The translations under genes were made by a program, and so were the position numbers. The notes below the pieces were generated by a model. The model did not search any database. It had not been told where the DNA came from and was given only the letters and a program-made list of their open reading frames with translations. Shown here in pieces: positions 16,599 through 32,110 of a stretch of DNA of 57,675 nucleotides (positions within the stretch are counted from its first letter, which is position 1; each line of letters opens with the position of its first letter). The stretch covers positions 1 to 57,675 of the forward strand of contig CBEUCJ010000006.1 in the NCBI GenBank assembly GCA_965541615.1. Reading direction: 5' to 3'. Source of the stretch: an uncultured bacterium (lineage in GTDB: Bacteria > Omnitrophota > Gorgyraeia > Duberdicusellales > CBEUCJ01).

Positions 16599-17784
16599 AA
16601 GATTTAAACAAACTTCAATAGTAGATCTTACTCACCATCTTCTTGTTGAAGGAGTCAATAAAAGAGCAAGTGATATTTTAATTGAACCTTTAGATGATGA
16701 GTTACAAATAAGGTTTCGTATAGATGGTGTGCTTTCTAAATTTGCATCTTTGCCTTCTGAAATGCATTCAAAAATAATTACCAGAATAAAAGTAATGGCA
16801 GGTTTAGATATTTCTGAAAAAAGATTACCTCAAGATGGTAGTTTTAAAATGAAATTTCCAGGAAAAGAAGTAGATTTCAGAGTCTCAGTAGTTCCTTCAA
16901 GATTAGGAGAAAGAGTGGTCTTAAGAGTCTTGGATAAAGGAAGGCTTATTTTAGATATTAATAAATTAGGTTTAGATCCTTATTCTTTAACTTCTCTTAA
17001 AGAGAGTTTATTAAGACCTTATGGAATAATTTTAATATGTGGTCCTACAGGTTCTGGGAAGACTACAACTTTATATGCTTCCATAAAATATATTGATTCT
17101 GTAGAAAAAAATATTGTAACAGTAGAAGACCCTGTAGAATACCAACTCTATGGTATAAATCAGGTTCAGATAAATGAAGAGATAGGCTTAACTTTTCCTG
17201 CAGTTTTACGTTCTATTTTAAGACAAGACCCAGATGTAATCCTGGTAGGTGAAATTAGAGATTCTGAAACTGCTGAAATTGCTGTAAGAGCTGCTTTAAC
17301 AGGACATTTGGTTTTAAGCACTCTTCATACGACTACAGCCACAGGTGGAGTTATCAGACTGATAAATATGGGAATAGAACCTTATTTAATAAGTTCATCT
17401 TGCCTTTTAATAGCTTCGCAAAATTTAGTCAGATTATTATGTCCAGATTGTAAAAAGCCTCAACCTCTTCCAAAAGTAATTTCAGTTCAATTAGAGCAAT
17501 ATGGATACAAAAAAGAAGAGATCCCAGAAATAATTTACACAGCTAAAGGTTGCGAGAAATGTAATAATACTGGTTACTTTGGTAGAAGAGCTATTATGGA
17601 AGCTCTGATGTTATCTCCTGAAATTAGAGAATTAATAGAAAAAAATGCTCCTGAAAGAGAAATCAGAAAGAAAGCAAGGATGCAAGGAATGAGGAGCTTG
17701 AGAGAAAGAGGATATGAACTCTTAATGAAAGGTTTGACTTCTTTAGAGGAGGTAATAAGAGTAACTTCTGCTCAAGAAGTTTAA
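16591..17784 (+). CDS. PilB/GspE-family secretion ATPase lacking the N-terminal (N1/MshEN) domain
   Basis: Walker A GPTGSGKTT, Asp box, Walker B (DPDVILVGEIRD), His box (TGHLVLSTLHT) and the tetracysteine motif CPDC...GCEKC, which is typical of PilB/GspE and not of PilT. TTG start overlaps the stop of the MshEN ORF by 8 nt. Confidence 0.85.
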   Translation: MTERFKQTSIVDLTHHLLVEGVNKRASDILIEPLDDELQIRFRIDGVLSKFASLPSEMHSKIITRIKVMAGLDISEKRLPQDGSFKMKFPGKEVDFRVSVVPSRLGERVVLRVLDKGRLILDINKLGLDPYSLTSLKESLLRPYGIILICGPTGSGKTTTLYASIKYIDSVEKNIVTVEDPVEYQLYGINQVQINEEIGLTFPAVLRSILRQDPDVILVGEIRDSETAEIAVRAALTGHLVLSTLHTTTATGGVIRLINMGIEPYLISSSCLLIASQNLVRLLCPDCKKPQPLPKVISVQLEQYGYKKEEIPEIIYTAKGCEKCNNTGYFGRRAIMEALMLSPEIRELIEKNAPEREIRKKARMQGMRSLRERGYELLMKGLTSLEEVIRVTSAQEV

Positions 17785-17797
17785 AATAGTTTTTAAG

Positions 17798-19446: not shown

Positions 19447-21342
19447 ATGAAACATAAATATCTTTTTTTTATTTTTTTATTCTTCTTTTTGAAATATGGA
19501 TTCTCTCAAGATCCAATATCTCCTAAAATTAGAGTAGAAGGTGATACTCAAATAAAGTTTGGAACTTTAAGATTAAAACCTGTAAAAGACACCCCTCCTG
19601 CTTCTCCTCAATTAGGAGATTTGTATTTTGATGGGACTTATCTTTATACTTGGGATGGCTCAAATTGGGTGCAAGTTTCAGAAGAAGGTTCACTTTTCTT
19701 TAATGATGCAGATAATTCCTTATATTTTTATGATGGAGCTCAGTGGCAAAAATTAGGAGAAGGTGAAGGTCCTAAAAAAATAGCTACAAGGATAGTAGCA
19801 GCATCTGACTCTCCAGATAAAAGCAGAGCAGACTATATCTGTGATGGAACAGATGACCAAGAAGAAATAAATCAAGCAATAATAGATGTGTATTTTAATC
19901 AAAATAATCCAGGTTTGGGAGGTTCAGTTTATTTATTAGCTGGAACTTACAATATAAGTGATAATACATCTATTACTTACACAAAACCAGATGGCACTAC
20001 TTTAACTTATTCAACTCCAGGCATCGTTTTATACTCTAATATCTCCTTAATAGGTGAAGGAGCAGGCACAGTTTTAAAAGCAGTTTCTGGCACAGCTTAC
20101 GATATAATAAATGTAATTGGCTCTTCTACAGAGTTTCTCAAAGGTGCTTTTATTTCCCAATTAAGAGTAGATGGAAATAAAGCTAATGTGTCAGGTACAC
20201 ACAATGGAATTTATTTTAAGTATGCTCAGAATTCAAAAATTACAAAAGTATGGATTGAAAATTGTTCAGGTTCTGCAATAAAATTGGAAAACTCTTCTTA
20301 TAATATTTTCTCTAAAAGTTTTCTATTAAATTGCTCAAAAGGAATTTACTTTGATTCAAGTTCTAATAACATCATTGCAAAAAATATAATTGAAAATATA
20401 CCTGAAGGAGCTATATACTTTGCTTCAACTTCAGATAGCAATTATAACATAATAGAAAGCAATATTATTTACAATTTAACAGGAACAGTTACTACAGGAG
20501 CTATAAGATTACATGGTGATTACAATATTTTTTTGGCAAACCATATTACAAGTTCTAAAATAGGAGGCGTTTTAATAGAAGGTGATTACAATCTTTTATA
20601 TTCAAATCTATTAAGTGGTTTAGAAAATTTCGGAGTCAATTTATCTGGTTCTACTTACAATCTTTTATCTTCAAACCACATTCATTTAGGTTCTTCTAAT
20701 TCAGCTTATGGGATAAAAATAGAGTCGAGTTCAGATTCTAATCTTTTAGTGGGAAATTATATTTGGGACCAAGAAGATGATTTTGCTTCACTTTCAATCC
20801 TTGATTCAGATAAACTCCTCATAGCTTCCAATTACATACTTTATCCTGGAATCCCTGATTATGGGATTGAAATAGATAGTCTTTCAAAAGATAACTATAT
20901 TGTAGGAAATCAAATAATAGATAGCAGCACAAATTCTCCAGGAAATATAAAGGACAATGGCACAAATACTCAGTATACTCAAAAAGAAAAAATGACAATA
21001 GAAAAGTATACTTTTCCTTATCCATCTATTTCTTCTCCTTATAAATTAGATACTTTTGTCAATGTACGGGCTCACAGTTATATAGCTTTTAATATTAACA
21101 GAGCAGGCACTTATACTGTTTATTTAACGACAGGCAAATCTCCAGGTGACATACTTATCTTAGAGAACAAGACCAATAATAAAAATAACTTTATTAGAGT
21201 CTATGATTATACTGATCCTGGTTCTCCTTCAGGAAATGCAATAAATTTAAGTGTTTCTTACATAGATTTAGGCAAAAATGATGTTTTAAAACTGATCTGG
21301 AATGGAACTCACTGGATTGAATTAGAACATATTGATAACTAA
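19447..21342 (+). CDS. Secreted right-handed parallel beta-helix (PbH1/NosD-like) repeat protein, paralog 1 of 4
   Basis: Signal peptide ending GFS/QD. N-terminal motif duplicated (GDLYFDGTYLYTWDGSNWVQV and NSLYFYDGAQWQKL). DYICDGTDDQEEINQAI and GGSVYLLAGTYN. Many N.I..N-type beta-helix turns. Conserved ~130-aa C-terminal module ending LKLIWNGTHWIELEHIDN. Confidence 0.75.
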   Translation: MKHKYLFFIFLFFFLKYGFSQDPISPKIRVEGDTQIKFGTLRLKPVKDTPPASPQLGDLYFDGTYLYTWDGSNWVQVSEEGSLFFNDADNSLYFYDGAQWQKLGEGEGPKKIATRIVAASDSPDKSRADYICDGTDDQEEINQAIIDVYFNQNNPGLGGSVYLLAGTYNISDNTSITYTKPDGTTLTYSTPGIVLYSNISLIGEGAGTVLKAVSGTAYDIINVIGSSTEFLKGAFISQLRVDGNKANVSGTHNGIYFKYAQNSKITKVWIENCSGSAIKLENSSYNIFSKSFLLNCSKGIYFDSSSNNIIAKNIIENIPEGAIYFASTSDSNYNIIESNIIYNLTGTVTTGAIRLHGDYNIFLANHITSSKIGGVLIEGDYNLLYSNLLSGLENFGVNLSGSTYNLLSSNHIHLGSSNSAYGIKIESSSDSNLLVGNYIWDQEDDFASLSILDSDKLLIASNYILYPGIPDYGIEIDSLSKDNYIVGNQIIDSSTNSPGNIKDNGTNTQYTQKEKMTIEKYTFPYPSISSPYKLDTFVNVRAHSYIAFNINRAGTYTVYLTTGKSPGDILILENKTNNKNNFIRVYDYTDPGSPSGNAINLSVSYIDLGKNDVLKLIWNGTHWIELEHIDN

Positions 21343-21344
21343 AA

Positions 21345-21854
21345 ATGATTTATGAAGAGGTTTTTAAAGAGTTAAATAAAAGAAAAGTTAAATATGTAGT
21401 AGTAGGAGGCATAGCTCTGGTCTTATATGGTATATTACGCTTTACTGCAGATTTGGATTTAGTAATTCATTTAGAAGAAAAAAATATAGATAGATTCTTC
21501 AAAGCGATCAAAAATTTAGGTTTTAAACCAAAAGTTCCTGTTACAGAAGAAGAATTTAAAGATAAGAAAAAGAGAGCTGAATGGATAAAAAAGAAAAATA
21601 TGATAGTATTCTCTTTTTATCATCCAAAAGACCCCCTTAAAATAATAGATGTCTTTATAAAAGAGCCAATAAAATTTGAATCTCTTTATAAACAGGCAAA
21701 AAAAATAAAAGTAAAAAAGATTACCATTCCTTTAGCTTCTCTCAAGCATCTAAGACAACTTAAAAAAAGAGCAAAAAGAGAAAAGGATTTTATAGATTTA
21801 ATTAAGCTTAAAGATTTTGAAAAAATAGAAAAAGATGAAAAGAAAAAAATTTAA
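21345..21854 (+). CDS. Small nucleotidyltransferase-fold protein (DUF-type, toxin-antitoxin-like)
   Basis: VKYVVVGGIALVLYGILRFTADLDLVI matches the GG...D.D minimal nucleotidyltransferase signature. C-terminal KREKDFIDLIKL. Confidence 0.55.
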   Translation: MIYEEVFKELNKRKVKYVVVGGIALVLYGILRFTADLDLVIHLEEKNIDRFFKAIKNLGFKPKVPVTEEEFKDKKKRAEWIKKKNMIVFSFYHPKDPLKIIDVFIKEPIKFESLYKQAKKIKVKKITIPLASLKHLRQLKKRAKREKDFIDLIKLKDFEKIEKDEKKKI

Positions 21855-21939
21855 AGAAGATCATTTAGATTTATATTTAAAGTCTACTTATCTGCAAAGA
21901 TTAAACTGGTTAGAAAAAGCTCATGAATTTGTTAAAAAG

Positions 21940-23637
21940 ATGATAAAACTGAGTAAAAAAATTAAAGACCTTAAAAAGTTACTTTTCATTTTATTATTTA
22001 TTTTTCTTTTTATCTCTTACTCTTTTTCTGCAAAACTCAATATACCTGACAGCTTAATCATAGAAAGAACTCTTTATTTGGTCCCTCAATCAACACCACC
22101 TACTTGTGATGCAGATTCAGAAGGAAAGATATACTATGATGCAAATGATAAGACTATAAAATACTGTGATGGTTCTGGTTGGAAAGATTTAAGAGGAAAA
22201 GAAAGATCAGTAGCTACAGTAATAGTTGCAGCTAAAGACTCCTTAGATACAGTATGTGATGCTTCAGGTTGTACAAATGAAAGAGCAGATTTTACTTGCG
22301 ATGGAATAAGTGACCAAGTAGAGATAAATCAGGCAATTAATTCTTTGCCTCCTGAAGGAGGGGCAGTCTATTTATTAGAAGGAACATATAATTTAACTGG
22401 TAGTATACATATTAACAAAGATAATGTTTCTTTAATTGGACAGGGAAGAGGAACAATACTGAAAATAAATGGTATAGTTATAAATGCAAGTGGAACTTCT
22501 AGTGATCCTTTAACAGGTATTTTGATTTCTAAATTGAAAATAGAAGGTGAGCTTAGGTTTAATTGTATAGAAAAATCTGCAATTAATAGTCTATGGATTA
22601 AAACTCTACATGATGTTCACTGCTCTAATTATAAACACAATATTTTCTCAGAAAATTTCTTAAAAACTTCTATGGGGAGTTTATGGGTAAATTCTTCTTC
22701 TTCAAATATTTTTGCAAATAATATATTTGAAGGTTTAGAGTTATGGCTTACAGCTAATAGTAATAATAACATAGTAGAAAGTAATATAATTTATAATGTG
22801 CCATTTTATATGGGAGTTGGAATTATATATCTTCAAGATAAAGGAAATATTATTATGGGAAATAGTATACATAATTGTCCAGCAGAACCGACCGGAATAG
22901 GAGTTCGGTTTAATGCAAGTAACAATGTTATCTGCGCTAATAGTATATTTGATGTTAAATTATATGGAATACTTCTTAGCTCATCCCCAGAAGAAAACCT
23001 TGTATCTTCAAATCTAATTCATCTCCTCTCTTCAAATAATGCAAAAGGAATTGATTTAGCTTTTGACAAAAATCTTGTTACAGCAAATCTTATAAAAGAA
23101 GAAGCAAGTTGTAATGCTTTACACTTAAACTCTTTATCTAATGAAAATCTTATTACTTTCAATTATATAGATTCTTCTTATACTTCAGGATATGCAGTTG
23201 ATAATGATGGTTCAGATAACTATTTTGTAGGAAATCAGATAGTTGCACCTAATGCTTTAAAATTTTCTGATGATGGCACAAATACTCAACACATTCAAAA
23301 AGAAAAAATAACACTTGAACGCCAGACTGTAACTTTATCTTCTTCACCTGCAACTTTAGAAGTAGCTACTACTCCTCGTGGGTATGTAGTTTTTGATACA
23401 GGAGGTTCAAACATTCAATTAGGAGACCCAGCAAACAATATTAATGCAATAAATGATGGAAAAGCTCAAGGAGATTTACTCATCTTAGAAGGACCTTCAT
23501 CAGGTTCAGTCACAATTAAAAATGGAGCAAATGTTAAGTTAAAAGGAGGTTTAGATAGAACTTTACAATCTGAAGATACTCTGACTCTAATCTGGAATGG
23601 TTCTGATTGGATTGAAATAGCTTACAGCGATAATTGA
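21940..23637 (+). CDS. Secreted beta-helix repeat protein, paralog 2 of 4
   Basis: The ORF is open from ATG 21835, but a typical signal peptide (MIKLSKKIKDLKKLLFILLFIFLFISYSFS/AK) begins at ATG 21940. Family motifs: GKIYYDANDKTIKYCDGSGW, FTCDGISDQVEINQAI, GGAVYLLEGTYN, and the C-terminal GDLLILEG...LTLIWNGSDWIEIAYSDN. Confidence 0.75.
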   Translation: MIKLSKKIKDLKKLLFILLFIFLFISYSFSAKLNIPDSLIIERTLYLVPQSTPPTCDADSEGKIYYDANDKTIKYCDGSGWKDLRGKERSVATVIVAAKDSLDTVCDASGCTNERADFTCDGISDQVEINQAINSLPPEGGAVYLLEGTYNLTGSIHINKDNVSLIGQGRGTILKINGIVINASGTSSDPLTGILISKLKIEGELRFNCIEKSAINSLWIKTLHDVHCSNYKHNIFSENFLKTSMGSLWVNSSSSNIFANNIFEGLELWLTANSNNNIVESNIIYNVPFYMGVGIIYLQDKGNIIMGNSIHNCPAEPTGIGVRFNASNNVICANSIFDVKLYGILLSSSPEENLVSSNLIHLLSSNNAKGIDLAFDKNLVTANLIKEEASCNALHLNSLSNENLITFNYIDSSYTSGYAVDNDGSDNYFVGNQIVAPNALKFSDDGTNTQHIQKEKITLERQTVTLSSSPATLEVATTPRGYVVFDTGGSNIQLGDPANNINAINDGKAQGDLLILEGPSSGSVTIKNGANVKLKGGLDRTLQSEDTLTLIWNGSDWIEIAYSDN

Positions 23638-23647
23638 AAATAAAACC

Positions 23648-23805
23648 TTGGACACATCCGGAGTGTCCAAAGAACAAAGGTTGAGATGGGTGCCCAAAGA
23701 ACAAGATTGAGATTTGAGGAAATAAAGAAAGTTGTAAGTGAGAAACAAAAAAGGACAGTCCTTAAATGTTACACTTCTGGGGTGTCCAAAAAAACAAGGT
23801 TGAAA
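23648..23805. promoter_or_regulatory. Intergenic palindrome plus direct-repeat cluster upstream of, or overlapping, the start of paralog 3
   Basis: An 8-bp-stem palindrome TTGGACAC-atccgga-GTGTCCAA at 23648-23670. Three copies of GTG(T/C)CCAAA(G/A)AACAAG(G/A)TTGA(G/A)A at 23663-23686, 23690-23712 and 23782-23805. A further palindrome AAGGACAGTCCTT near 23749-23761. Confidence 0.4.
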
Positions 23806-25485
23806 AAAACGATCTTTAAAAAAATTAATTTATTCTTTCTTTTATTTTATTTTCTGCTTTCTCTTTCTTTCTCCCAACAAGACAACCTCTGTATAAAAGG
23901 CACCCTTCAAACTCAAACTCTAACTATAAAAGGTTCAGATACTCTGCCTGCTTCTCCTACAAAAGGTGAAATCTACTACAAAACAGATGAAGATACAATC
24001 TACTTTTATGATGGCTCACAATGGCAGAAAATAGGAGAAGGTCAAGACAAAACAGTAGCTTCTCAAATAGTAAGAACCCAAAACTCAAGATATGATGCAG
24101 ACAAAACCTGTGATGGAACAGATGATCAACAAGAAATTCAACAGGCAATAAATGATTTGGGAAATGATAAAGGTGCAGTTTATTTATTAGAGGGAGAGTA
24201 TAATCTTTCAGCTCTTGTCAGATTAGATTCACAAAATAGTCCTAATTATGATGGAATAAGTGATTTTAATAAGTCTATAATTGGAACAGGTGCAGGGAGT
24301 TTATTAAAAACAGATAGCCAAACGAACATAATTGAACTTTATTATAGTTGGGGAACTAAAAGAAGAAACCTTCTTTCTCAATTTAGAATGGATGGAAATA
24401 AAGTAGGATACGAGGGAATATATGCAATGTATCTTGCTCACAGTTTAATAGACAATGTTTGGGCAAGTAAGTTTTACTGTATAGGAATTAATTTAGGGAA
24501 TGCAAAAAAAAGTATACTTACTTCCTCTTTTGCTGAACAATGTAATTCTCGTTGGTTTTCTTCTGGAATGGGAGCTTATCCATGGGCAGGTTTTAGCTCT
24601 TCAATTCTTGCTAACAATATTAGTATAAGAAATTCACATGGAATTTGTACAGCAAAAGGGATATACAGTAGTATTATTTCTTTTAATATTGCTGGATATA
24701 TTTCTCATATACACAGTGCTAGTATGTATAATAATATCTTTATAGGAAATATTTTTTCTTTAAGCCATCAACAACCTGGGCATTGTATAGTGGTAGGAAA
24801 TAAGGGAGGAAATATAGGGCTTTTTATTGCATCCTTTAATATGGTTTCTTCCTGCAATGTAGCATCTATTGGTTTTGGCTGGTGGTGGTTGGATGATCAT
24901 TTTAATATAATATGGGGAAATATAGCTTCAAGAGACACGGGAACTTTAATTGGAATGAAAAGACATAAATATGGGTTAATTTCTTCTAATTTATGTTTTT
25001 GTACATCAGCTACTATTGGAAGTTGGCGTTGGTGTTGGCGTGGAATTGCTATTACAAACGCATATGGAGGTATTAGTACAGGTGTATATTTTGTAGGTAA
25101 TCTCATTGAAGGGGGCCCATTTTCTCAACAAATTAAAGTCGAAGATCAGGGTACTTCCACCTTCTACACAGACAAACTCAAACTCACTCTTGAAGGAAAA
25201 CCCCTTGATATCTCTAATTCAACTTATACTCTGGATATGACCACAAACCCAAGAACTTACTTTCAATTAAACCCTCAAGTTGATACTACTCTTTCTCTAC
25301 AAGATGGAAAATCACCTGGAGACCTACTCATCTTAGAAAATACAAGTTCTTCTTATACTATTACTATCTCTGAATCAAGAAATATAGAATTAGAAAAAAA
25401 CACTTTAACTTTAGGAGAAAATGACACCTTAATGCTCTTATGGGATGGAACAAAATGGATACAAACAGCTTATGCTGATAATTGA
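23686..25485 (+). CDS. Secreted beta-helix-family protein, paralog 3 of 4 (mosaic partner of paralog 4)
   Basis: ATG 23686 has AAGG 5 nt upstream but gives a 48-aa basic N-region. TTG 23800 would give a canonical signal peptide (MKKTIFKKINLFFLLFYFLLSLSFS/QQ). The N-terminal ~118 codons and C-terminal ~111 codons match paralog 4 with a single synonymous difference. The core is divergent and Trp/Cys-rich (GWWWLDD, SWRWCWRG). Confidence 0.7.
   Translation: MGAQRTRLRFEEIKKVVSEKQKRTVLKCYTSGVSKKTRLKKTIFKKINLFFLLFYFLLSLSFSQQDNLCIKGTLQTQTLTIKGSDTLPASPTKGEIYYKTDEDTIYFYDGSQWQKIGEGQDKTVASQIVRTQNSRYDADKTCDGTDDQQEIQQAINDLGNDKGAVYLLEGEYNLSALVRLDSQNSPNYDGISDFNKSIIGTGAGSLLKTDSQTNIIELYYSWGTKRRNLLSQFRMDGNKVGYEGIYAMYLAHSLIDNVWASKFYCIGINLGNAKKSILTSSFAEQCNSRWFSSGMGAYPWAGFSSSILANNISIRNSHGICTAKGIYSSIISFNIAGYISHIHSASMYNNIFIGNIFSLSHQQPGHCIVVGNKGGNIGLFIASFNMVSSCNVASIGFGWWWLDDHFNIIWGNIASRDTGTLIGMKRHKYGLISSNLCFCTSATIGSWRWCWRGIAITNAYGGISTGVYFVGNLIEGGPFSQQIKVEDQGTSTFYTDKLKLTLEGKPLDISNSTYTLDMTTNPRTYFQLNPQVDTTLSLQDGKSPGDLLILENTSSSYTITISESRNIELEKNTLTLGENDTLMLLWDGTKWIQTAYADN
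23848..24201 (+). repeat. Repeat block A, copy 1 (5' end of paralog 3)
   Basis: 354 bp matching 25641-25994 at a constant offset of 1793. By eye there is one mismatch (24180 T versus 25973 G, synonymous Val). Confidence 0.9.
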
Positions 25486-25492
25486 TTATTAT
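25154..25492 (+). repeat. Repeat block B, copy 1 (3' end of paralog 3 plus 7 nt past the stop)
   Basis: 339 bp matching 26989-27327 at a constant offset of 1835. No mismatch seen by eye, and the encoded 111 aa are identical. Confidence 0.9.
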
Positions 25493-25522
25493 TTAAAATA
25501 AAATTTTTTATCCCAAACCATG

Positions 25523-25556
25523 TGGACACCTCCGGAGTGTCCAAGGATGTTGAAAG
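25523..25556. promoter_or_regulatory. Second copy of the GGACAC/GTGTCC palindrome element, between paralogs 3 and 4
   Basis: TGGACAC-ctccgga-GTGTCCA at 25523-25543, followed by a shortened version of the CCAAGG..GTTGAAAG motif (25537-25556). Confidence 0.4.
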
Positions 25557-25580
25557 TTTTTAAAACTGAGAAGAAGAATA

Positions 25581-27320
25581 ATGATTACAAAAATAAAGAA
25601 AAATAAACTGAAAATAGGAAATATTTTATTCATTATTTTTATTTTCTGTCCCTCTCTTTCTTTCTCCCAACAAGACAACCTCTGTATAAAAGGCACCCTT
25701 CAAACTCAAACTCTAACTATAAAAGGTTCAGATACTCTGCCTGCTTCTCCTACAAAAGGTGAAATCTACTACAAAACAGATGAAGATACAATCTACTTTT
25801 ATGATGGCTCACAATGGCAGAAAATAGGAGAAGGTCAAGACAAAACAGTAGCTTCTCAAATAGTAAGAACCCAAAACTCAAGATATGATGCAGACAAAAC
25901 CTGTGATGGAACAGATGATCAACAAGAAATTCAACAGGCAATAAATGATTTGGGAAATGATAAAGGTGCAGTGTATTTATTAGAGGGAGAGTATTTGGTG
26001 AGTAATGCGATACAGTTAGAATACGGAGCTGGTTTTACTTTTACCCCTGATAGAATAGGAGATAGTTATAAGTCTATAATAGGCACAGGAGCTGGGAGTA
26101 TCTTAAAAGTAAATGCAGATGCAGATTTTTGTGTTTTTAAACTTTATTACGGAAGAAAAGGATGCGCTCTTATGAGTAATTTTCAAATCGATGGAAATAA
26201 AGCTTCAGTAACAGGTAAGAACTGTGGAATTAGTCTTGGGGGTTGGTATCAAGTTGGGTTTAAATACTCTATAGTTGATAATGTATGGATAAAAGATCTC
26301 ACCTCTTGGGGGATTACTCTTGTCAATAGGTTAAGTATTTATACTGATAATTATATTTTATCTGGAATTGATTGTAAAGATGCCCTTAGATTTGGCTCGG
26401 GTAGTAAAGGATTGAGTATATTTTCCAACAATTTTATTACCCCTCAGATTCATTTCTATGGATATGGAGGAGGTAGTATGCAGTGTGATATAATTTCTTT
26501 AAATATTTTTCCTTCTGGCAATATTGATCTTTATGGTTATTGTGCATATTGTAGTCGTCACATTCTTTTAGGAAATATTGTACCTGGAGGTAATATTGTA
26601 ACTAGAGGTATTAATCCTCGTTGCAATCATTTAGTTGTGTGTAGCAATCTCCTTAGTGGAGGAGGAGGAGGAATTAATTACTCAGGTGGGAAAAGCATGA
26701 TTTCAAATAATTTAATCAAAGAAAGTAGTTTCCCTGCTATTAACTATAATGGAGCTGAGTTAGTTTTTAGTAACATGATTTCTGAAAGTGCTACAGGCGG
26801 CTTTTGGGCAGACTGCGGAATATACGTAACAGCTCCGTCTCTTATTTCCTCAAATTATATTTATGATTCTGTTTGTAATGGTGGTTATTACTATGGGATT
26901 ATTATCTGGCATCCATTTTTAAAAAATATTTATATTGTAGGTAATTATATTCAAGGAAATTATACACATCCTATTTATGATAGACCTTCTTCCACCTTCT
27001 ACACAGACAAACTCAAACTCACTCTTGAAGGAAAACCCCTTGATATCTCTAATTCAACTTATACTCTGGATATGACCACAAACCCAAGAACTTACTTTCA
27101 ATTAAACCCTCAAGTTGATACTACTCTTTCTCTACAAGATGGAAAATCACCTGGAGACCTACTCATCTTAGAAAATACAAGTTCTTCTTATACTATTACT
27201 ATCTCTGAATCAAGAAATATAGAATTAGAAAAAAACACTTTAACTTTAGGAGAAAATGACACCTTAATGCTCTTATGGGATGGAACAAAATGGATACAAA
27301 CAGCTTATGCTGATAATTGA
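25581..27320 (+). CDS. Secreted beta-helix repeat protein, paralog 4 of 4 (mosaic partner of paralog 3)
   Basis: Signal peptide (...FCPSLSFS/QQDN). Ends match paralog 3 apart from one synonymous base. The core is divergent, with PbH1-like turns and a GGGGGINYSGG stretch. C-terminus ...LMLLWDGTKWIQTAYADN. Confidence 0.75.
   Translation: MITKIKKNKLKIGNILFIIFIFCPSLSFSQQDNLCIKGTLQTQTLTIKGSDTLPASPTKGEIYYKTDEDTIYFYDGSQWQKIGEGQDKTVASQIVRTQNSRYDADKTCDGTDDQQEIQQAINDLGNDKGAVYLLEGEYLVSNAIQLEYGAGFTFTPDRIGDSYKSIIGTGAGSILKVNADADFCVFKLYYGRKGCALMSNFQIDGNKASVTGKNCGISLGGWYQVGFKYSIVDNVWIKDLTSWGITLVNRLSIYTDNYILSGIDCKDALRFGSGSKGLSIFSNNFITPQIHFYGYGGGSMQCDIISLNIFPSGNIDLYGYCAYCSRHILLGNIVPGGNIVTRGINPRCNHLVVCSNLLSGGGGGINYSGGKSMISNNLIKESSFPAINYNGAELVFSNMISESATGGFWADCGIYVTAPSLISSNYIYDSVCNGGYYYGIIIWHPFLKNIYIVGNYIQGNYTHPIYDRPSSTFYTDKLKLTLEGKPLDISNSTYTLDMTTNPRTYFQLNPQVDTTLSLQDGKSPGDLLILENTSSSYTITISESRNIELEKNTLTLGENDTLMLLWDGTKWIQTAYADN
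25641..25994 (+). repeat. Repeat block A, copy 2 (5' end of paralog 4)
   Basis: See copy 1. Identity stops abruptly after GAGGGAGAGTAT. Confidence 0.9.
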
Positions 27321-27327: not shown

Positions 27328-27379
27328 TGTTTAAAATAAAAATAACTGATAGAATAGGTTAACTAACTAAAAATTTAAA

Positions 27380-28166: not shown

Positions 28167-29366
28167 ATGCCAGTATTTGTTTATAAAGCAAAAGATTCTG
28201 AAGGAAAGACCACCAAATCTATAATCGAAGCTCCAAGTTATCAGGAAGCTCTATCAAAGTTAAGAGAAGAATTTTCTGCAGTTTTACTTTTAAAAGAGAC
28301 AAAAAGAAAATTTGCAAAGAGAATAAAGAAAGTAAGTTTAGATAGTTTAGCTCAATTCTCAAGAGAGTTAGCTACAATGGTAGGAGCAGGCACTCCTTTA
28401 GTAAAAAGTTTAACGATATTAGGAAATCAATTTAAAGAAAAGACTTTATCAGAAATTGCCCATGATTTAGCAAAATATATTGAAGCAGGAAACAGTTTTG
28501 CAGATGGGTTAAAAAAATACCCCAAAGTTTTCTCTCCTCTCTATATAAATACTGTAGTAGCTGGTGAAACCAGTGGAACTTTAAAAGATGTCTTAGAAAG
28601 ATTAGCTAATTATTTGGAGAATACATCTATTCTTTTAAGAAAAATAAAGACTGCCATGATCTATCCAACAGCAGTAGTTATCGTAGCAATAATTATTACT
28701 TCTTTTTTAGTCTTTAAAATCATACCTGGATTCAAAGAAATATTTGAGAATTTAGGAGGAGAGTTACCTTTACCTACAAGAATAGTTATAAAAGTAAGTG
28801 ATACTTTTAAGAAATATTTCTTTTTCATTGCAGGATTTTTTATTATAAGTTTTTTAATCTTTATTAGACTTATTAACACTTCTCGGGGCAGATTTTTATT
28901 CGATAAATTTAAATTAAAAATCCCTGTATTAGGTCCTCTTTTTCAAAAAGTGGCCATCTCGCGTTTTAGTAGAACTTTAGGGATACTTTTAAGGAGTGGT
29001 GTGCCTATTTTAGAAGCATTAAAAATTGTAAGTAAAGCTGTGGGAAACAAAGTATTAGAAGAATCTATTTTAAAGACTTTAGAAGAGGTAAGAAGAGGAA
29101 AGACTTTAGCTCCTAATTTAGAGAAAAGTAAAATATTTCCTCCAATGGTAATAGAGATGATAAGTGTAGGTGAAGAGAGTGGAGAGTTAGAGAATATGTT
29201 AGAGAATATAGCTGATAGCTATGATACTCAAGTAGATATAGCCACAAACAATCTGGTCTCTCTTATAGAGCCTTTTATCATCATTTTCTTAGGAGTCGTA
29301 ATTGGAGGAATAGTAGTTAGTATGTTTTTACCTATCTTAAAGATCACTCAACTCTTAGGAAGATGA
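28167..29366 (+). CDS. pilC: PilC/GspF-family inner-membrane platform protein
   Basis: 399 aa with two T2SSF-type repeats (SRELATMVGAGTPLVKSL... and SRTLGILLRSGVPILEAL...) and three TM regions. GspF cannot be excluded. Confidence 0.88.
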   Translation: MPVFVYKAKDSEGKTTKSIIEAPSYQEALSKLREEFSAVLLLKETKRKFAKRIKKVSLDSLAQFSRELATMVGAGTPLVKSLTILGNQFKEKTLSEIAHDLAKYIEAGNSFADGLKKYPKVFSPLYINTVVAGETSGTLKDVLERLANYLENTSILLRKIKTAMIYPTAVVIVAIIITSFLVFKIIPGFKEIFENLGGELPLPTRIVIKVSDTFKKYFFFIAGFFIISFLIFIRLINTSRGRFLFDKFKLKIPVLGPLFQKVAISRFSRTLGILLRSGVPILEALKIVSKAVGNKVLEESILKTLEEVRRGKTLAPNLEKSKIFPPMVIEMISVGEESGELENMLENIADSYDTQVDIATNNLVSLIEPFIIIFLGVVIGGIVVSMFLPILKITQLLGR

Positions 29367-30712
29367 AAATTTTAATAAAAAAAATAAAGAGTTTTACTTT
29401 AATGGAACTGTTAATAGCAAGCACAATTTTGATCTTAATATTAACAGCATTCTTAGGGACTTTTAATTCTCTTTTAAACACAGCTCAGCAAGCTAAATAC
29501 ATCTCTTTAGCATTAAACAGATGTCTGCAAGAAGCTTCAGAAATGCAAAAAAAAGGATTTTTAGAGAGTTTGTTTTCTAATTGTTCTTTAGGAGGAAGTT
29601 TTGATATCTATGATGAAGCAAACAATCTTATTGGAAAAGGAAATTTTACTCTTAAAGATAGATACGACCTTTATAGAGTAGAGAATGCTACTAATACTTC
29701 AGCTTTTCCTACTGGGCGTGAAAGAATTTCTTGTGTAGTCTTTGATAACAAAATATGGGTAATAGGAGGTTTTGATGGGACTTACTTAGATGATGTATGT
29801 TATTCTGAAGATGGAGTAAACTGGAACTGCACTTACTCTTTGCCATCTCCCAGAGCTTCACATACTTCAGTAGTCTTTGATAACAAAATATGGGTAATAG
29901 GAGGTTATGATGGAACAAATTACTTAAAAGAAGTCTGTTACTCTTCAAATGGTGCTAATTGGACATGCAAAGATTCTTTACCATCTGGTAGAATCTTACA
30001 CACATCTGTGGTCTTTAATAACAAAATCTGGGTAATAGGAGGTTATGATGGAACAAATTACTTAGATGATGTATGTTATTCTGAAGACGGAGTAAACTGG
30101 AACTGCACTTACTCTTTGCCATCTCCTAGGGCTTTGCATACATCTGTAGTCTTTGATGATAAAATATGGGTAATAGCTGGTTTTAATGGAACGAGCTACT
30201 CAGATGATGTTATCTATTCTACAGATGGTTCTAGTTGGAATACAGCTACCACTAATGCTACAGGTATTCAGAGAGGTTGCCATGTAAGTGTGGTTTATGA
30301 TGGTAAGATGTGGATTTTAGGAGGAAGAGATAAATATGGCACCCCTTATAATGATGTCTGGCATTCAAAGAATGGTAATTGCTGGATAAAAGCAACAGAT
30401 AATGCAAATTGGTCTAAAAGATATCTTCATGCAGGAACAGTCTTTAAAGATAGAATTTGGATACTGGGTGGTTATGGTAATGGTTATAAAAAAGATGTCT
30501 GGTCTTCTACAGGTTATGGAAGATTATTTGAAGCCAAAATCACAGCTTCTTTTAAATTACCAAACGGAAGGATAATAGGAGAAGATAAAAATCTAAATGG
30601 AATTTTAGATGCAGGTGAAGATTTAAACGGAAATGGAGAATTAGATTCTCCAGTTTTTTTAAGGAGCTTTATTTCAAAGAAAAAAAGAGGCTTATATTTA
30701 GGAGAGCAATAG
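29363..30712 (+). CDS. Pseudopilin-like protein fused to a six-bladed Kelch/Asp-box-like beta-propeller and a C-terminal Asp/Asn-rich (Ca-binding-like) segment
   Basis: N-terminal class III signal KS/FTLMELLIASTILILILTAF. Six ~46-aa blades of the form VVFDNKIWVIGG.DGT...DV.YS.DG.NW. Asp/Asn-rich DKNLNGILDAGEDLNGNGELD at nt 30584-30647. ATGA overlap with pilC. Confidence 0.75.
   Translation: MKILIKKIKSFTLMELLIASTILILILTAFLGTFNSLLNTAQQAKYISLALNRCLQEASEMQKKGFLESLFSNCSLGGSFDIYDEANNLIGKGNFTLKDRYDLYRVENATNTSAFPTGRERISCVVFDNKIWVIGGFDGTYLDDVCYSEDGVNWNCTYSLPSPRASHTSVVFDNKIWVIGGYDGTNYLKEVCYSSNGANWTCKDSLPSGRILHTSVVFNNKIWVIGGYDGTNYLDDVCYSEDGVNWNCTYSLPSPRALHTSVVFDDKIWVIAGFNGTSYSDDVIYSTDGSSWNTATTNATGIQRGCHVSVVYDGKMWILGGRDKYGTPYNDVWHSKNGNCWIKATDNANWSKRYLHAGTVFKDRIWILGGYGNGYKKDVWSSTGYGRLFEAKITASFKLPNGRIIGEDKNLNGILDAGEDLNGNGELDSPVFLRSFISKKKRGLYLGEQ
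29782..29850 (+). repeat. Intragenic DNA repeat in the propeller gene, copy 1
   Basis: 69 bp matching 30058-30126 (offset 276 nt, equal to two blades) with one mismatch (29812 T versus 30088 C). Confidence 0.85.
30058..30126 (+). repeat. Intragenic DNA repeat in the propeller gene, copy 2
   Basis: See copy 1. Confidence 0.85.
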
Positions 30713-30752: not shown

Positions 30753-31286
30753 ATGAAAAATAGAAAATCTTTTACTTTAATGGAGATGATGGTGGTTCTA
30801 AGTGTGTTTGCAGTAATTTCAGGTATAACTTTTACTGCCTTAAAACTTAATGATACTTATAGAGATACAGTATTAACTCAGCTTGAGTTATACAGAAAAG
30901 CTAAAAAAATCCATGATACCATTACAAAAGAACTTTCTCTTTCTCAAATCAATAGAATAAACATTACAGATTCTAATCCAGATGTCCTTACTTTTCAGAT
31001 ACCTCTTTTAAGTCAAATAGACGATAACTATACTATTCCTTGGGGAGCAGAAGAAAATGAAGGATATTATATAAGATACCAATTAATAGGAGATGAATTA
31101 AAAAGAGAAATCTTAGATTCTACATATTCACTTGTCTCTCAACAGACAGTTACTAAAGGTGTAGCTGACTTACAATTTTCTTCAGATTCAGAGAGCATAA
31201 CCATTAATTTTACACTTTCTAGGACTAATATTGAAGGAAGGGTTATAAATTTTACTTCTCAATTTAAAGTTTACTTAGCAAATTGA
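30753..31286 (+). CDS. Minor pseudopilin (prepilin-type N-terminal cleavage/methylation domain protein)
   Basis: MKNRKS/FTLMEMMVVLSVFAVISG class III signal with Glu at +5. Small beta-rich body, GspJ/PilW-like in size. Confidence 0.75.
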   Translation: MKNRKSFTLMEMMVVLSVFAVISGITFTALKLNDTYRDTVLTQLELYRKAKKIHDTITKELSLSQINRINITDSNPDVLTFQIPLLSQIDDNYTIPWGAEENEGYYIRYQLIGDELKREILDSTYSLVSQQTVTKGVADLQFSSDSESITINFTLSRTNIEGRVINFTSQFKVYLAN

Positions 31287-32038
31287 TTATGAAAGTTAAA
31301 GATAAAAAAGGAATAGTAATGTTAAGTGTACTTTTGGTAGTGACTATGGTTTCAGTTTATTTAACAGGTTATGTTATCTGGACTATTTATGATCAAAGAC
31401 ATTTACTTATAGAAAGGAAAATAGCTCTTGCTAAAAGAATAGCAAGAGCAGGTTTAGAAAGAGCAAAAGCTGAATTGTATTTAGATTCAAATTGGATAGA
31501 TGGAGAAGTAAACGGAAAAAATTTAACCGATAATTTAGGAAATCCTATTACAGGACCAGATCCTAACGATCCTGATGAATGGTATTTTTTATATAAAAAT
31601 GTTTCTTTAGGTGAAGGAAATTACACTGTAATGATAGATTACCTTCAAAAACCACGGAGTTGCACTTCAGGATGTAGTTTTTATAAACGCAGATTACATT
31701 TACGTTCTATAGGTAGAGTAGAAAATTTTGTAAAGACTTTAGAAGAATTTATCTGGGAAGAACCTATTAAAAACTTAAATCAAAATACTTATTATGAAGA
31801 GCTCCAAACAGCTATAAATGAAGCTCAGGATAATAATACCCTTGCTATTACAGATGCAGTCTTAAATGAATTATCTATAAATACAAACTCTACTTTAGCT
31901 CAAAATTTTTCTATAAAAGGCTGTTATGATCCTTCATTCCAAACAAGGAATTGTCAAAATTATCTTTCCTATATAGAAGGGAATGTGACTATTTCAGGTA
32001 ATGTTCAAGTAGAGATCGGAGGAATAACTGTAAGATAG
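31283..32038 (+). CDS. PilX/GspK-like minor pseudopilin candidate
   Basis: N-terminal KKG/IVMLSVLLVVTMVSVYLTGYVIW hydrophobic helix without Glu5, as seen in PilX/GspK-type proteins. TTGA overlap with the upstream pseudopilin gene. The assignment rests on position and N-terminus only. Confidence 0.5.
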   Translation: MIMKVKDKKGIVMLSVLLVVTMVSVYLTGYVIWTIYDQRHLLIERKIALAKRIARAGLERAKAELYLDSNWIDGEVNGKNLTDNLGNPITGPDPNDPDEWYFLYKNVSLGEGNYTVMIDYLQKPRSCTSGCSFYKRRLHLRSIGRVENFVKTLEEFIWEEPIKNLNQNTYYEELQTAINEAQDNNTLAITDAVLNELSINTNSTLAQNFSIKGCYDPSFQTRNCQNYLSYIEGNVTISGNVQVEIGGITVR

Positions 32039-32110
32039 CTTCTCCTTTTTTAAGACCCCAATTTAAAAATATTTAAAATACTTTTTAAAAACAATTTTTA
32101 AATTTTTTTA

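What the first reader, a model, noticed from the sequence alone, without database searches (positions are those of the whole stretch)
29363..30712. Pseudopilin fused to a six-bladed Kelch/Asp-box-like beta-propeller with recently duplicated blades
- **Pilin-type N-terminus:** a class III signal and hydrophobic helix (KS/FTLMELLIASTILILILTAF).
- **Propeller:** six ~46-aa blades follow. Each combines a Kelch-like (V/I)W(V/I)(I/L)GG core with an Asp-box-like YS.(D/N)G.(N/S)W.
- **C-terminal segment:** an Asp/Asn-rich stretch, DKNLNGILDAGEDLNGNGELD, resembling Ca-binding loops.
- **Size:** a 400-aa globular propeller on a pilin stalk is far larger than typical minor pilins. It suggests a tip-located adhesin or lectin.
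- **Recent duplication:** blades 1-2 and 3-4 share a 69-bp near-identical DNA segment (29782-29850 and 30058-30126, one mismatch) plus other 30-35-bp identities. This indicates recent intragenic duplication or conversion and a potential for blade-number variation.
Basis: partly seen in the sequence, partly recalled or inferred. Interest (0 to 1): 0.65.

Follow-up and report, generated by a model that had tools for sequence, protein, structure and literature searches.

The report
Minor pilin with inserted Kelch propeller
This gene encodes a small pilus subunit of an uncultivated (probably Omnitrophota) bacterium that has a six-bladed Kelch propeller spliced into one of its loops, most likely a binding head shown at the tip of a type IV pilus-like fibre; it is a new variant of the known "modular pilin" idea, not a new kind of system.

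Summary
ORF 29363-30712 (+, 449 aa) has a prepilin-type N-terminus, six Kelch blades, a C-terminal Asp/Asn-rich stretch and a 138-nt tandem DNA repeat with a 69-nt near-identical pair.

The interpretation needs three corrections.
- The propeller (aa 106-382, about 277 aa, not 400) is inserted into a beta-hairpin of a roughly 155-aa minor pilin family common in Omnitrophota. It is not appended to a stalk.
- The Asp/Asn-rich segment belongs to that pilin scaffold, where it is the most conserved part. It is not part of the propeller.
- The "Asp-box" is the ordinary S-x-D-G-x-x-W turn of bacterial Kelch blades.

The AlphaFold2 model is confident (pLDDT 92) and its propeller matches six-bladed Kelch domains. 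The gene follows pilC and heads a conserved three-gene set that resembles GspI-J-K / PilV-W-X. It sits in a conserved cluster with two PilB/GspE ATPases, MshEN domains and a GGDEF protein, and often with beta-helix depolymerase-like proteins.

Two lineages show whole-blade differences between near-identical strains (6 vs 4 blades; 6 vs 5 vs 5), and the 69-nt segment evolves in concert. Assembly collapse is not excluded.

Best reading: a ligand-binding module displayed at the fibre tip. This is a new variant of a known kind, of moderate interest.

The parts
29363..30712 (+). Whole gene: Kelch-inserted minor prepilin, 449 aa plus stop
   Evidence: ORF list and sequence. Pfam Kelch families above threshold. 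AF2 model pLDDT 92.2, pTM 0.79.
29363..29392 (+). Class III-type leader peptide MKILIKKIKS (aa 1-10); predicted cleavage after Ser10
   Evidence: Direct reading. Orthologues have G, A or S at -1 followed by F-T-L-x-E. Cleavage was not tested.
29393..29548 (+). Pilin alpha1 helix (aa 11-62) with Phe+1, Glu+5 and a hydrophobic N-half
   Evidence: AF2 helix 13-62. A PDB profile search with the insert-free family hits only the alpha1N of type IV pilins, best E 1.3e-4.
29549..29677 (+). N-terminal part of the pilin head (aa 63-105): short helix 66-73, strands 77-83 and 89-101
   Evidence: AF2 secondary structure. Aligns with insert-free pilins up to the 'GKG..Y.D' strand.
29678..30508 (+). Inserted six-bladed Kelch beta-propeller (aa 106-382). 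Strand 106-108 is inferred to close blade 6.
   Evidence: Pfam. Foldseek against PDB: LZTR1 Kelch 4.6e-22, also KLHL12, KEAP1 and designed six-blade SAKe6 proteins. A blade HMM finds 6 units.
29734..30210 (+). 138-nt tandem DNA repeat covering blades 1-4. Includes the 69-nt near-identical pair 29782-29850 / 30058-30126.
   Evidence: TRF score 597; repeat families. Concerted evolution of the 69-nt segment compared with L008. The L001 deletion breakpoints fall inside it.
30509..30709 (+). C-terminal part of the pilin head (aa 383-449): strand 388-398, Asp/Asn loops, strands 431-440 and 443-447. The last ~12 aa form an extension found only in the Kelch-bearing members.
   Evidence: AF2. Alignment with insert-free pilins. 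The tail '..R..(Y/F)(L/M)G..' is present in every Kelch-pilin examined and absent from the insert-free pilins aligned.
30578..30649 (+). Two tandem D-x-N-x-N-G-x-x-D loops (GEDKNLNGILDAGEDLNGNGELDS, aa 406-429); putative Ca2+ sites of the pilin scaffold
   Evidence: Invariant or near-invariant columns in Kelch-bearing and insert-free members. No Ca-binding Pfam family matches; only DUF7151 below threshold.
28167..29366 (+). Platform protein PilC/GspF; its stop overlaps the start of the pilin gene
   Evidence: Pfam T2SSF 1e-62. NCBIfam PilC 384.6 and GspF 379.4 bits, both below the equivalog cut-offs.
30753..31286 (+). Second minor prepilin, 177 aa (KS|FTLMEMM), at the GspJ/PilW position
   Evidence: Pfam N_methyl 29.9 bits. 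Homologues follow both Kelch-bearing and insert-free pilins in other loci.
31283..32038 (+). Third pilin-like protein, 251 aa. Hydrophobic N-terminus without Glu5, as in GspK/PilX.
   Evidence: Direct reading. Conserved in L002, L006 and L007. No Pfam or NCBIfam match.
16170..19390 (+). Stand-alone MshEN domain protein, an N-less PilB/GspE ATPase, and a full MshEN-PilB/GspE ATPase
   Evidence: Pfam and NCBIfam. The same split arrangement occurs in L002 and L007.
12172..16173 (+). GGDEF-AAA_16(STAND)-HEAT protein, 1333 aa, at the head of the cluster
   Evidence: Pfam. Same position in L002 and L007.
19447..27320 (+). Four paralogous beta-helix / phage-depolymerase-C proteins with N-terminal hydrophobic segments, interleaved with a nucleotidyltransferase (21345-21854); a HEPN/nucleotidyltransferase pair follows at 27380-28101. 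Possible functional partners.
   Evidence: Pfam. Paralogue identities 36-61%. Co-located with Kelch-pilins in L002, L003, L006, L007 and L008.

Best explanation
**What it is.** The gene encodes a minor prepilin of a type IV filament system that resembles T4aP or MSHA pili. The organism is AT-rich (29% G+C), uncultivated and probably belongs to Omnitrophota.

**Scaffold.** The scaffold is a roughly 155-aa pilin family with this layout:
- leader, then the alpha1 helix;
- a small beta-sheet;
- two EF-hand-like Asp/Asn loops;
- a final strand.

In related genomes this small pilin is the first gene of a three-gene set: small pilin, a 175-220-aa pilin, then a larger pilin-like protein lacking Glu5. 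The set resembles GspI-GspJ-GspK or PilV-PilW-PilX, the complexes that prime filament assembly and stay at the tip.

**Insertion.** In this lineage a complete six-bladed Kelch propeller sits in the turn between the two long strands of the pilin head. A propeller's N- and C-termini meet in one blade, so it fits into a hairpin without disturbing the host fold.

**Inferred mechanism.**
1. A prepilin peptidase cleaves after Ser10.
2. The subunit joins its two partner pilins on the PilC platform and nucleates the fibre.
3. A PilB-type ATPase extends the fibre under c-di-GMP control (MshEN domains, neighbouring GGDEF protein).
4. The propeller is carried out on the tip, where it binds a ligand: a glycan or protein on a host or prey cell, on a particle, or on one of the co-encoded beta-helix enzymes.
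5. The Asp/Asn loops bind Ca2+ and stiffen the pilin head.
6. Recombination between the near-identical blade segments homogenises blades and may add or remove them.

**Status of the claims.**
- Shown here: domain architecture, insertion site, predicted fold, family membership, synteny and concerted evolution.
- Inferred: processing, tip location, ligand binding, Ca binding and c-di-GMP control.
For: **Architecture**
- Kelch families score far above threshold.
- The AF2 model has pLDDT 92.2 and pTM 0.79. The pilin strands 89-101 and 388-398 flank the propeller at 106-382.
- Foldseek matches the propeller to six-bladed Kelch domains at about 1e-21, with TM-scores of 0.76-0.82 normalised to the target.

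**Insertion rather than fusion**
- A scaffold-only profile recovers 278 proteins. The top 120 are almost all 138-193 aa, and those carrying a source label are labelled Omnitrophota. They cover 86-95% of the scaffold.
- The alignment places the whole propeller in one gap between 'GKG.xYVD' and 'LLExxIxVSW'.
- hhalign gives probability 100%, E 5e-54.
- An AF2 model of an insert-free member has the same secondary-structure order.

**Pilin identity**
- Orthologues carry G, A or S at -1 followed by F-T-L-x-E.
- Insert-free members pass Pfam N_methyl and TIGR02532.
- A PDB profile search hits the alpha1N of type IV pilins.

**Machinery and synteny**
- The gene order is GGDEF-STAND / MshEN / T2SSE / MshEN-T2SSE / T2SSF / Kelch-pilin / ~180-aa pilin / 250-310-aa protein.
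- The full order is seen in the window and L002, and rearranged (the pilin genes on the opposite strand) in L007. L001, L003, L006 and L008 show parts of it.
- In L009 and L010 the triple is followed by PilO, a T2SSB-like protein and a secretin.
- Insert-free pilins head the same kind of triple. In L005 it precedes pilM, pilO and a secretin gene.

**Repeat dynamics**
- The 69-nt copies differ by 1 nt within the window and by 1 nt within L008, but by 3 nt between orthologous copies.
- L001 has a 276-nt in-frame deletion with breakpoints inside that repeat.
- Whole-blade indels separate P0019, P0033 and P0039.

**Precedent**
- Modular pilins are widespread and thought to be tip-exposed. GspK has a domain inserted into the pilin sheet (PMC8179133).
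- Thermus ComZ has a beta-solenoid inserted into the pilin fold and is argued to fit only at the tip (PMC6561018).
Against: - **Non-canonical cleavage site.** The -1 residue is Ser and Pfam N_methyl is below threshold at 15.4 against 21.2 bits. No prepilin peptidase gene lies in the window, so processing is unproven.
- **Missing machinery in the window.** It holds no major pilin, PilM/N/O or secretin.
- **Weak GspI/PilV assignment.** It rests on gene order, size and sub-threshold N-terminal HMM hits: gspI 21.2 bits against a cut-off of 44.35, PilV 19.3 against 52.2. Foldseek with the insert-free pilin model found no significant PDB match; best E 0.75.
- **Ca binding unproven.** No Ca-binding family matches the Asp/Asn loops.
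- **No expression data.** No RNA run holds the locus.
- **Blade-number variants unverified.** All come from short-read metagenome assemblies and could be repeat collapse. Logan unitigs break at the repeats and cannot decide.
Confidence: 0.6

Rival explanations
1. It is the tip subunit of a T2SS-like pseudopilus. The filament stays periplasmic and acts as a piston. The propeller recognises or pushes the co-encoded secreted beta-helix, depolymerase-like enzymes through a secretin.
For: - ATPases and platform score as well against GspE/GspF as against PilB/PilC.
- No PilT-type retraction ATPase is in the cluster.
- The triple resembles GspI-J-K.
- Four paralogous beta-helix proteins with N-terminal hydrophobic segments sit inside the cluster here. 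Similar proteins sit in L002, L003, L006, L007 and L008.
- Secretins in L009 and L010 carry a GspD-like N0 domain.
Against: - Where accessory genes are adjacent they are PilM/PilO-type, not GspC/L/M.
- MshEN domains are typical of MSHA and T4P ATPases.
- A propeller roughly as wide as the fibre itself would be an odd piston head inside a secretin vestibule (inference).
- No beta-helix genes were seen in the available flanks of L009 and L011.
Confidence: 0.2
2. It is not a filament subunit. The Ser at -1 prevents cleavage, and the protein is a bitopic inner-membrane protein whose periplasmic Kelch domain acts as an enzyme or sensor, for example a sugar mutarotase or oxidase.
For: - N_methyl is below threshold and the -1 residue is non-canonical.
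- There are weak hits to NanM/YjhT mutarotase models: 3.3e-11, but 42.9 bits against a cut-off of 256.
- Sugar-related genes lie upstream in the window.
Against: - The neighbouring bona fide prepilin also has Ser at -1 and passes N_methyl.
- Orthologues have Gly or Ala at -1.
- Glu+5 and the whole pilin head are conserved with a family that passes the pilin models.
- The gene is translationally coupled to pilC and heads the minor-pilin triple in every locus where the order could be read.
- The mutarotase hits cover a single blade only.
Confidence: 0.08
3. The six-blade form, or the blade-number differences, are artefacts of assembling a tandem repeat from short reads. There is no biological blade variation.
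For: - L001, P0019, P0033 and P0039 are metagenome contigs.
- The differences are exact repeat units with breakpoints in identical sequence. Repeat collapse produces the same pattern.
- Four- and five-bladed Kelch propellers are not known from solved structures (own knowledge).
Against: - The six-blade form is found independently in a JGI assembly, L008, 93% nt identity.
- Blade-2-specific sequence (29897-30050) is present at flank-like depth in four metagenome runs.
- The repeat is only 69 nt, shorter than typical reads, so collapse is less likely (the contig name k141_... suggests a large final k-mer; assembler identity is my inference).
- Concerted evolution shows that recombination between blades does occur.
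Confidence: 0.45

Closest known systems
Thermus thermophilus ComZ (competence minor pilin with inserted beta-solenoid; PMC6561018)
   Same: A large all-beta domain is inserted through two short linkers into the beta-sheet of a pseudopilin-like fold. It is encoded next to a partner minor pilin and is argued on steric grounds to sit at the fibre tip as a receptor.
   Different: - The insert is a ~380-aa beta-solenoid that binds DNA, not a Kelch propeller.
- It lies between the penultimate and last strands, not in the first long hairpin.
- The host pilin resembles GspK and lacks the classical motif, whereas this one is the small first pilin of the triple.
GspK (T2SS tip pseudopilin)
   Same: A domain is inserted into the pilin beta-sheet, and the protein belongs to a three-pilin tip complex (GspI-J-K). 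Ca-binding sites in T2SS pseudopilins are from my own knowledge.
   Different: The GspK insert is an alpha-helical domain of unclear function. GspK lacks Glu5 and is the third member of the trio. Here the insert is in the first member, which has Glu5.
Streptococcus sanguinis modular pilins PilB (vWA) and PilC (lectin) and the InterPro catalogue of modular pilins (PMC8179133)
   Same: A minor pilin carries a recognisable ligand-binding module for display on the fibre. The catalogue (1,200 proteins, 264 architectures) lists one protein with IPR012902 plus IPR006652 (Kelch), so the combination had been seen once.
   Different: Those modules are grafted onto the C-terminus through a linker. Here the module is nested inside the pilin fold. 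The Kelch case was never described or analysed. The organisms are monoderm pathogens rather than an environmental diderm.
PilY1 / PilC tip adhesins of T4aP
   Same: A beta-propeller combined with EF-hand-like Ca loops is presented at the pilus tip by the minor-pilin priming complex (PMC7541494, PMC8833165 and own knowledge). The functional parallel is close.
   Different: PilY1 is not a pilin. Its propeller is a distinct family (IPR008707). No PilY1 domain appeared among the Pfam hits listed for this protein. Here propeller and Ca loops are built into a pilin itself.
Eukaryotic and bacterial six-bladed Kelch domains (LZTR1, KLHL12, KEAP1; NanM)
   Same: Same fold and repeat motif: Foldseek about 1e-21, about 22% identity.
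   Different: Those are soluble adaptor or enzyme domains. None is nested in a pilin.

Membership tests
Type IV pilin / pseudopilin superfamily (class III signal peptide) | Short basic leader, small residue at -1, Phe/Met at +1, Glu at +5, about 20 hydrophobic residues | tested here: met
   MKILIKKIKS|FTLMELLIASTILILILTAF. Deviation: Ser at -1. Pfam N_methyl scores 15.4 against 21.2 bits. Orthologues have G or A at -1.
Type IV pilin / pseudopilin superfamily (class III signal peptide) | Long alpha1 helix packed against an antiparallel beta-sheet head | tested here: met
   AF2 models of this protein and of insert-free P0171, pLDDT 92. These are predictions, not experiment. Foldseek with the short model found no significant PDB pilin.
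Type IV pilin / pseudopilin superfamily (class III signal peptide) | Homology to proteins that pass curated pilin models | tested here: met
   hhalign of the scaffold against the insert-free family: probability 100%, E 5e-54. Members pass PF07963 and TIGR02532.
Type IV pilin / pseudopilin superfamily (class III signal peptide) | Cleavage and N-methylation by prepilin peptidase; incorporation into a filament | not testable with these tools
   No peptidase gene in the window and no experimental data.
Type IV pilin / pseudopilin superfamily (class III signal peptide) | Encoded with type IV filament machinery | tested here: met
   T2SSF lies immediately upstream with overlapping stop and start. 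Two T2SSE ATPases are present. Secretin and PilO are adjacent in L009 and L010.
Kelch beta-propeller | Kelch repeat models above curated thresholds | tested here: met
   PF24681 157.6 bits (cut-off 50); PF01344 123.6 bits (cut-off 20.1).
Kelch beta-propeller | Six four-stranded blades closing into a ring | tested here: met
   AF2 shows 24 strands between aa 106 and 382. Foldseek matches six-blade Kelch domains with TM 0.76-0.82 normalised to the target.
Modular pilins sensu Raynaud et al. 2021 | [quoted passage not shown] | tested here: met
   Pilin scaffold plus Kelch.
Modular pilins sensu Raynaud et al. 2021 | [quoted passage not shown] | tested here: not met
   66 scaffold residues follow the propeller and align with the C-terminal half of insert-free pilins. 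The module is an insertion, as in GspK and ComZ.
GspI / PilV minor pilins | Match to the equivalog models | tested here: not met
   Insert-free P0171 scores gspI 21.2 bits (cut-off 44.35) and PilV 19.3 bits (cut-off 52.2), over the N-terminal helix only. Neither model is listed for the window protein.
GspI / PilV minor pilins | Small first member of a three-pilin set whose third member lacks Glu5 | tested here: met
   Gene order in the window, L002, L004, L005, L006, L009 and L010.
Asp-box / BNR repeat | S-x-D-x-G-x-T-W hairpin motif and a match to the BNR model | tested here: not met
   The blades have S-x-(D/N)-G-x-x-W, one residue shorter. No BNR family was listed at E <= 0.1.
PilY1 / PilC tip adhesins | C-terminal PilY1-type propeller domain; not a pilin | tested here: not met
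   No PilY1 family among the Pfam hits. The protein has a pilin N-terminus. The resemblance is functional only.
EF-hand-like (DxDxDG) calcium loops | D-x-[DN]-x-[DN]-G-x-x-D loop that coordinates Ca2+ | tested here: inconclusive
   Two such loops (aa 408-416 and 420-428) are invariant across the family. No Ca-binding Pfam model matches. Metal binding cannot be tested here.

The most novel reading that the evidence does not exclude
The propeller-bearing tip pilin is the host or prey recognition device of ultra-small Omnitrophota, and it works together with the co-encoded set of beta-helix, phage-depolymerase-like proteins. Either the Kelch face docks these interchangeable enzymes on the fibre tip, like tailspikes on a phage, or it binds the same surface polysaccharide that they digest. 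The whole apparatus would be switched by c-di-GMP. Recombination between blades would change blade sequence and number to vary specificity, as a built-in diversification mechanism.
Probability: 0.12. Interest if true: 0.78.

Novelty: new variant of a known kind. Interest (0 to 1): 0.5.

Why it matters
**How fibres gain functions.** Type IV filaments acquire new functions by decorating their minor pilins. The known cases are C-terminal grafts (S. sanguinis PilB and PilC) and two insertions (GspK, ComZ). This protein shows a third solution: a complete, recognisable ligand-binding propeller nested in the smallest pilin of the priming complex. That merges into one subunit what Proteobacteria achieve with minor pilins plus the separate propeller protein PilY1.

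**Why the lineage is of interest.** The protein occurs in a small lineage of uncultivated bacteria, apparently Omnitrophota. Members of that phylum are thought to live attached to, or preying on, other microbes (PMC10066038). The propeller is therefore a concrete candidate for partner recognition. It could be expressed and screened without cultivating the organism.

**The blade repeats.** They give a small natural example of concerted evolution, and possibly of copy-number change, inside a propeller.

Tried and rejected
- **Foldseek with the insert-free pilin model against PDB.** No significant match, best E 0.75. The pilin head could not be assigned to a solved minor-pilin fold.
- **PDB sequence-profile search.** Only the alpha1N helix of major pilins matched.
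- **Profile search of 1.84 billion representatives with full-length Kelch-pilins.** The list was swamped by giant multi-Kelch proteins. Among the 150 listed, only P0103, P0109 and P0353 matched end to end as a single stretch; P0033 matched in two stretches. No real census was obtained.
  - Three clear full-length Kelch-pilins were found: L009 (Omnitrophota), and L010 and L011 (labelled Planctomycetia).
  - L024 turned out not to be a pilin.
  - The window's own species was not found.
- **Cluster look-up for organism names.** None was returned. The Omnitrophota assignment rests only on the labels of homologues and on synteny.
- **Read-level blade count.** Only Logan unitigs are available and they break at the repeats, so the 4-blade form cannot be tested. 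They do confirm blade-2-specific sequence.
- **RNA runs.** None found.
- **Single origin of the insertion.** The neighbour-joining tree of scaffolds was inconclusive (monophyly in 16 of 50 bootstraps). The shared insertion site and the shared C-terminal extension still favour one origin.
- **Asp-box reading.** Rejected on spacing and the lack of a family match.
- **Ca-binding family search on the C-terminal peptide.** Only a sub-threshold DUF7151 hit.
- **Propeller orientation relative to alpha1.** Not measured, because model coordinates are not exposed.

Full report
**1. What is in the sequence**

The ORF 29363..30712 (+) encodes 449 aa. Its ATG overlaps the stop codon of the upstream gene (ATGA), which is a PilC/GspF platform protein.

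The N-terminus MKILIKKIKS|FTLMELLIASTILILILTAF has the layout of a class III (prepilin) signal:
- a basic leader;
- Phe at +1 and Glu at +5;
- a hydrophobic stretch.

Two caveats apply. The -1 residue is Ser, and Pfam N_methyl reaches only 15.4 bits against a 21.2-bit cut-off. The next gene (30753..31286) also has KS|FTLMEMM and does pass N_methyl. Ser at -1 is therefore a habit of this organism and not a defect of this gene.

Kelch models score far above threshold: PF24681 at 3.9e-46 and Kelch_1 at 1.9e-36. A blade HMM built from the protein finds six units.

The same motif recurs in the Kelch homologues whose sequences were examined.

**2. The DNA repeat**

- Tandem Repeats Finder reports a 138-nt period, 3.5 copies, at 29734-30210, score 597.
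- The 69-nt pair 29782-29850 / 30058-30126 differs at one position.
- Blades 1-4 are 69-85% identical in DNA to each other, and 59-68% identical to blades 5-6.

**3. The propeller is inserted, not appended**

Homologues with full-length coverage share three parts:
- the pilin N-terminus;
- a block 'F.I.D..G..GKG.I...D' before the blades;
- a conserved block after the blades: 'GY.RL.E..IT.SW....GRIIGED.NLNG.LD.GED.N.NG.LDSP', plus a short tail.

These homologues include P0001 (95% identical), P0033, P0034, P0056, P0065, P0080, P0103 and P0109.

I joined the pre-blade and post-blade parts of eight members into a scaffold-only alignment and searched with it. It retrieved 278 proteins. The top 120 are almost all 138-193 aa and carry no Kelch domain. 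Those with a source label are labelled Omnitrophota. They cover 86-95% of the scaffold.

In a joint alignment the entire propeller falls into a single gap. The gap lies between the strand 'GKGvxYVD' and the strand 'LLExxIxVSW' of the short pilins. Profile-profile comparison of the scaffold with 69 short pilins gives probability 100%, E 5e-54.

**4. Predicted structure**

AlphaFold2 on a 95-sequence alignment gives pLDDT 92.2 and pTM 0.79. The elements in order are:
- helix 13-62 and a short helix 66-73;
- strands 77-83 and 89-101;
- 24 strands of propeller between aa 106 and 382;
- strand 388-398;
- an ordered loop region 399-430;
- strands 431-440 and 443-447.

Strand 106-108 precedes blade 1, and the last blade has only three strands of its own. 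I infer that this strand closes the ring. That would also explain why a propeller, whose two ends meet, fits into a hairpin.

Foldseek matches the propeller to six-bladed Kelch domains at about 1e-21 (LZTR1, KLHL12, KEAP1 and designed SAKe6 proteins).

An insert-free member (P0171) folds with the same order of elements, pLDDT 92.4. That model has no significant PDB neighbour. By sequence profile only its alpha1N helix matches solved type IV pilins.

Curated GspI, PilV and ComGE models give only sub-threshold hits over the N-terminal helix.

**5. Genomic context**

The gene order in the window is:

| Gene or block | Coordinates |
|---|---|
| GGDEF-STAND-HEAT | 12172-16173 |
| Stand-alone MshEN | 16170-16598 |
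| N-less PilB/GspE ATPase | 16591-17784 |
| MshEN-PilB/GspE ATPase | 17798-19390 |
| Four beta-helix / phage-depolymerase-C paralogues, plus a nucleotidyltransferase and a HEPN/nucleotidyltransferase pair | 19447-28101 |
| PilC | 28167-29366 |
| Kelch-pilin | 29363-30712 |
| 177-aa prepilin | 30753-31286 |
| 251-aa protein with a GspK/PilX-like N-terminus lacking Glu5 | 31283-32038 |
| mraZ and the cell-division cluster | from 32170 |

The same cluster recurs around Kelch-pilins that are only 37-44% identical:
- L002, an Omnitrophota MAG;
- L003, labelled Elusimicrobia;
- L006, L007 and L008.

In L009 and L010 the pilin triple is followed by PilO, a T2SSB-like protein and a secretin.

Insert-free pilins head the same kind of triple. 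In L005 it lies directly upstream of pilM, pilO and a secretin gene. The second gene of the triple is homologous across both kinds of locus.

The Kelch-pilin therefore occupies the position of the small first pilin of a set resembling GspI-J-K or PilV-W-X. By established knowledge those sets prime assembly and cap the fibre. The accessory genes are PilM/O-type, not GspC/L/M-type. For that reason I call the system T4P-like, while keeping a T2SS-like reading as a rival.

**6. Blade dynamics**

L001 is a syntenic locus about 98% identical in DNA, from another assembly. It has a 276-nt in-frame deletion that removes two blades. Both breakpoints lie inside the 69-nt repeat.

L008 is 93% identical in DNA and keeps six blades. 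Its two copies of the 69-nt segment differ from each other by 1 nt, as in the window. Orthologous copies differ by 3 nt, and two substitutions are shared by both copies within each genome. This is the signature of gene conversion, although it rests on few sites.

A second lineage shows 6, 5 and 5 blades (P0019, P0033, P0039), with whole-blade gaps at different places.

Blade-2-specific sequence is present at flank-like depth in four vent and sediment metagenomes, so the six-blade form is real. The shorter forms could be real or could be assembly collapse. Unitigs break at the repeats and cannot decide.

**7. Comparison with what is known**

- **Modular pilins.** This is an established class of 1,200 proteins in 264 architectures. 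The catalogue lists one Kelch-containing entry, which was never described (PMC8179133).
- **Insertions into the pilin sheet.** These are known for GspK and for Thermus ComZ. ComZ is argued to fit only at the tip (PMC6561018).
- **PilY1.** It combines a propeller with Ca loops at the T4aP tip, but it is not a pilin.

The present protein fails the "C-terminal graft" feature of modular pilins, the equivalog thresholds of GspI and PilV, and the Asp-box definition. It meets the pilin and Kelch definitions. It is best described as a new variant: a Kelch propeller nested in the first minor pilin of a priming set, in a small lineage apparently within Omnitrophota.

The number of such proteins is small. 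About a dozen distinct sequences were seen in 5.8 billion proteins, and three clear cases among 185,579 species genomes, although both searches were capped.

**8. Function**

None of the functional claims was tested. Tip display follows from three lines:
- gene position;
- the ComZ and GspK precedents;
- the steric argument that a propeller of this size cannot sit in the fibre body (my inference).

Ligand binding follows from what Kelch propellers generally do. Ca binding follows from two invariant D-x-N-x-N-G-x-x-D loops, with no family match. c-di-GMP control follows from the MshEN domains and the GGDEF neighbour.

Beta-helix depolymerase-like genes were found next to the Kelch-pilin in six loci and were not found in the flanks available for L009 and L011. 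This suggests, but does not show, a joint role.

Noticed in passing
window 19447-28101; also L006 3616-11575, L007 182-7875: Four paralogous beta-helix proteins (NosD/Beta_helix plus Phage_depo_C domains; N-terminal hydrophobic segments consistent with signal peptides; 36-61% identical). The last 40 aa of the third and fourth are identical. A nucleotidyltransferase gene (21345-21854) is interleaved among them in the window and a HEPN/nucleotidyltransferase pair follows them (27380-28101). The same interleaving recurs in distant loci, so the toxin-antitoxin-like pairs seem to travel with the depolymerase-like genes.
   Followed up: partly
window 12172-19390; L002 1291-8656; L007 12058-19109: A 1,270-1,350-aa GGDEF-AAA_16(STAND)-HEAT protein heads the pilus cluster. 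It is followed by a stand-alone MshEN (c-di-GMP-binding) protein and a PilB/GspE ATPase that lacks its N-domain. This split is conserved, so it is not a frameshift. A second, complete MshEN-ATPase comes next.
   Followed up: partly
window 31283-32038; L002 11973-12878; L006 2557-3495; L007 8516-9235: The third gene of the pilin triple has a GspK/PilX-like N-terminus without Glu5. Its conserved C-terminal block 'NLTIxGGYDxDF...VTISG...GGIRVE' looks like the first turns of a right-handed beta-helix. It has no Pfam or NCBIfam match.
   Followed up: no
window 29390 and 30768; L009 238-2435: Both prepilins in the window have Ser at the -1 position of the cleavage site. A relative (L009) has Ala in both of its prepilins, and other relatives have Gly. 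The cognate prepilin peptidase may have relaxed specificity.
   Followed up: no
window 30677-30709 and all Kelch-pilin orthologues: An extra C-terminal tail of about 12 aa ('..R..(Y/F)(L/M)G..') is predicted to form an added strand (aa 443-447). It is present in every Kelch-bearing member examined and absent from the insert-free pilins aligned. It may brace the inserted domain.
   Followed up: partly
L001 479-622: In the near-identical locus L001, the nucleotidyltransferase partner of the HEPN gene upstream of pilC is called as only 47 aa, against 115 aa in the window. It may be truncated.
   Followed up: no
window 47725-53639: A UvrD-type helicase (1025 aa) followed by a PD-(D/E)XK nuclease protein (946 aa), an AddAB-like pair, lies downstream of the cell-division cluster.
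   Followed up: no
window 32039-32169: The intergenic region before mraZ contains three direct copies of AAAGTGGGAT (reading 'AAAGTGGGATAAAGTGGGATAAAGTGGGAT'), immediately upstream of the mraZ start. They may be MraZ operator repeats.
   Followed up: no
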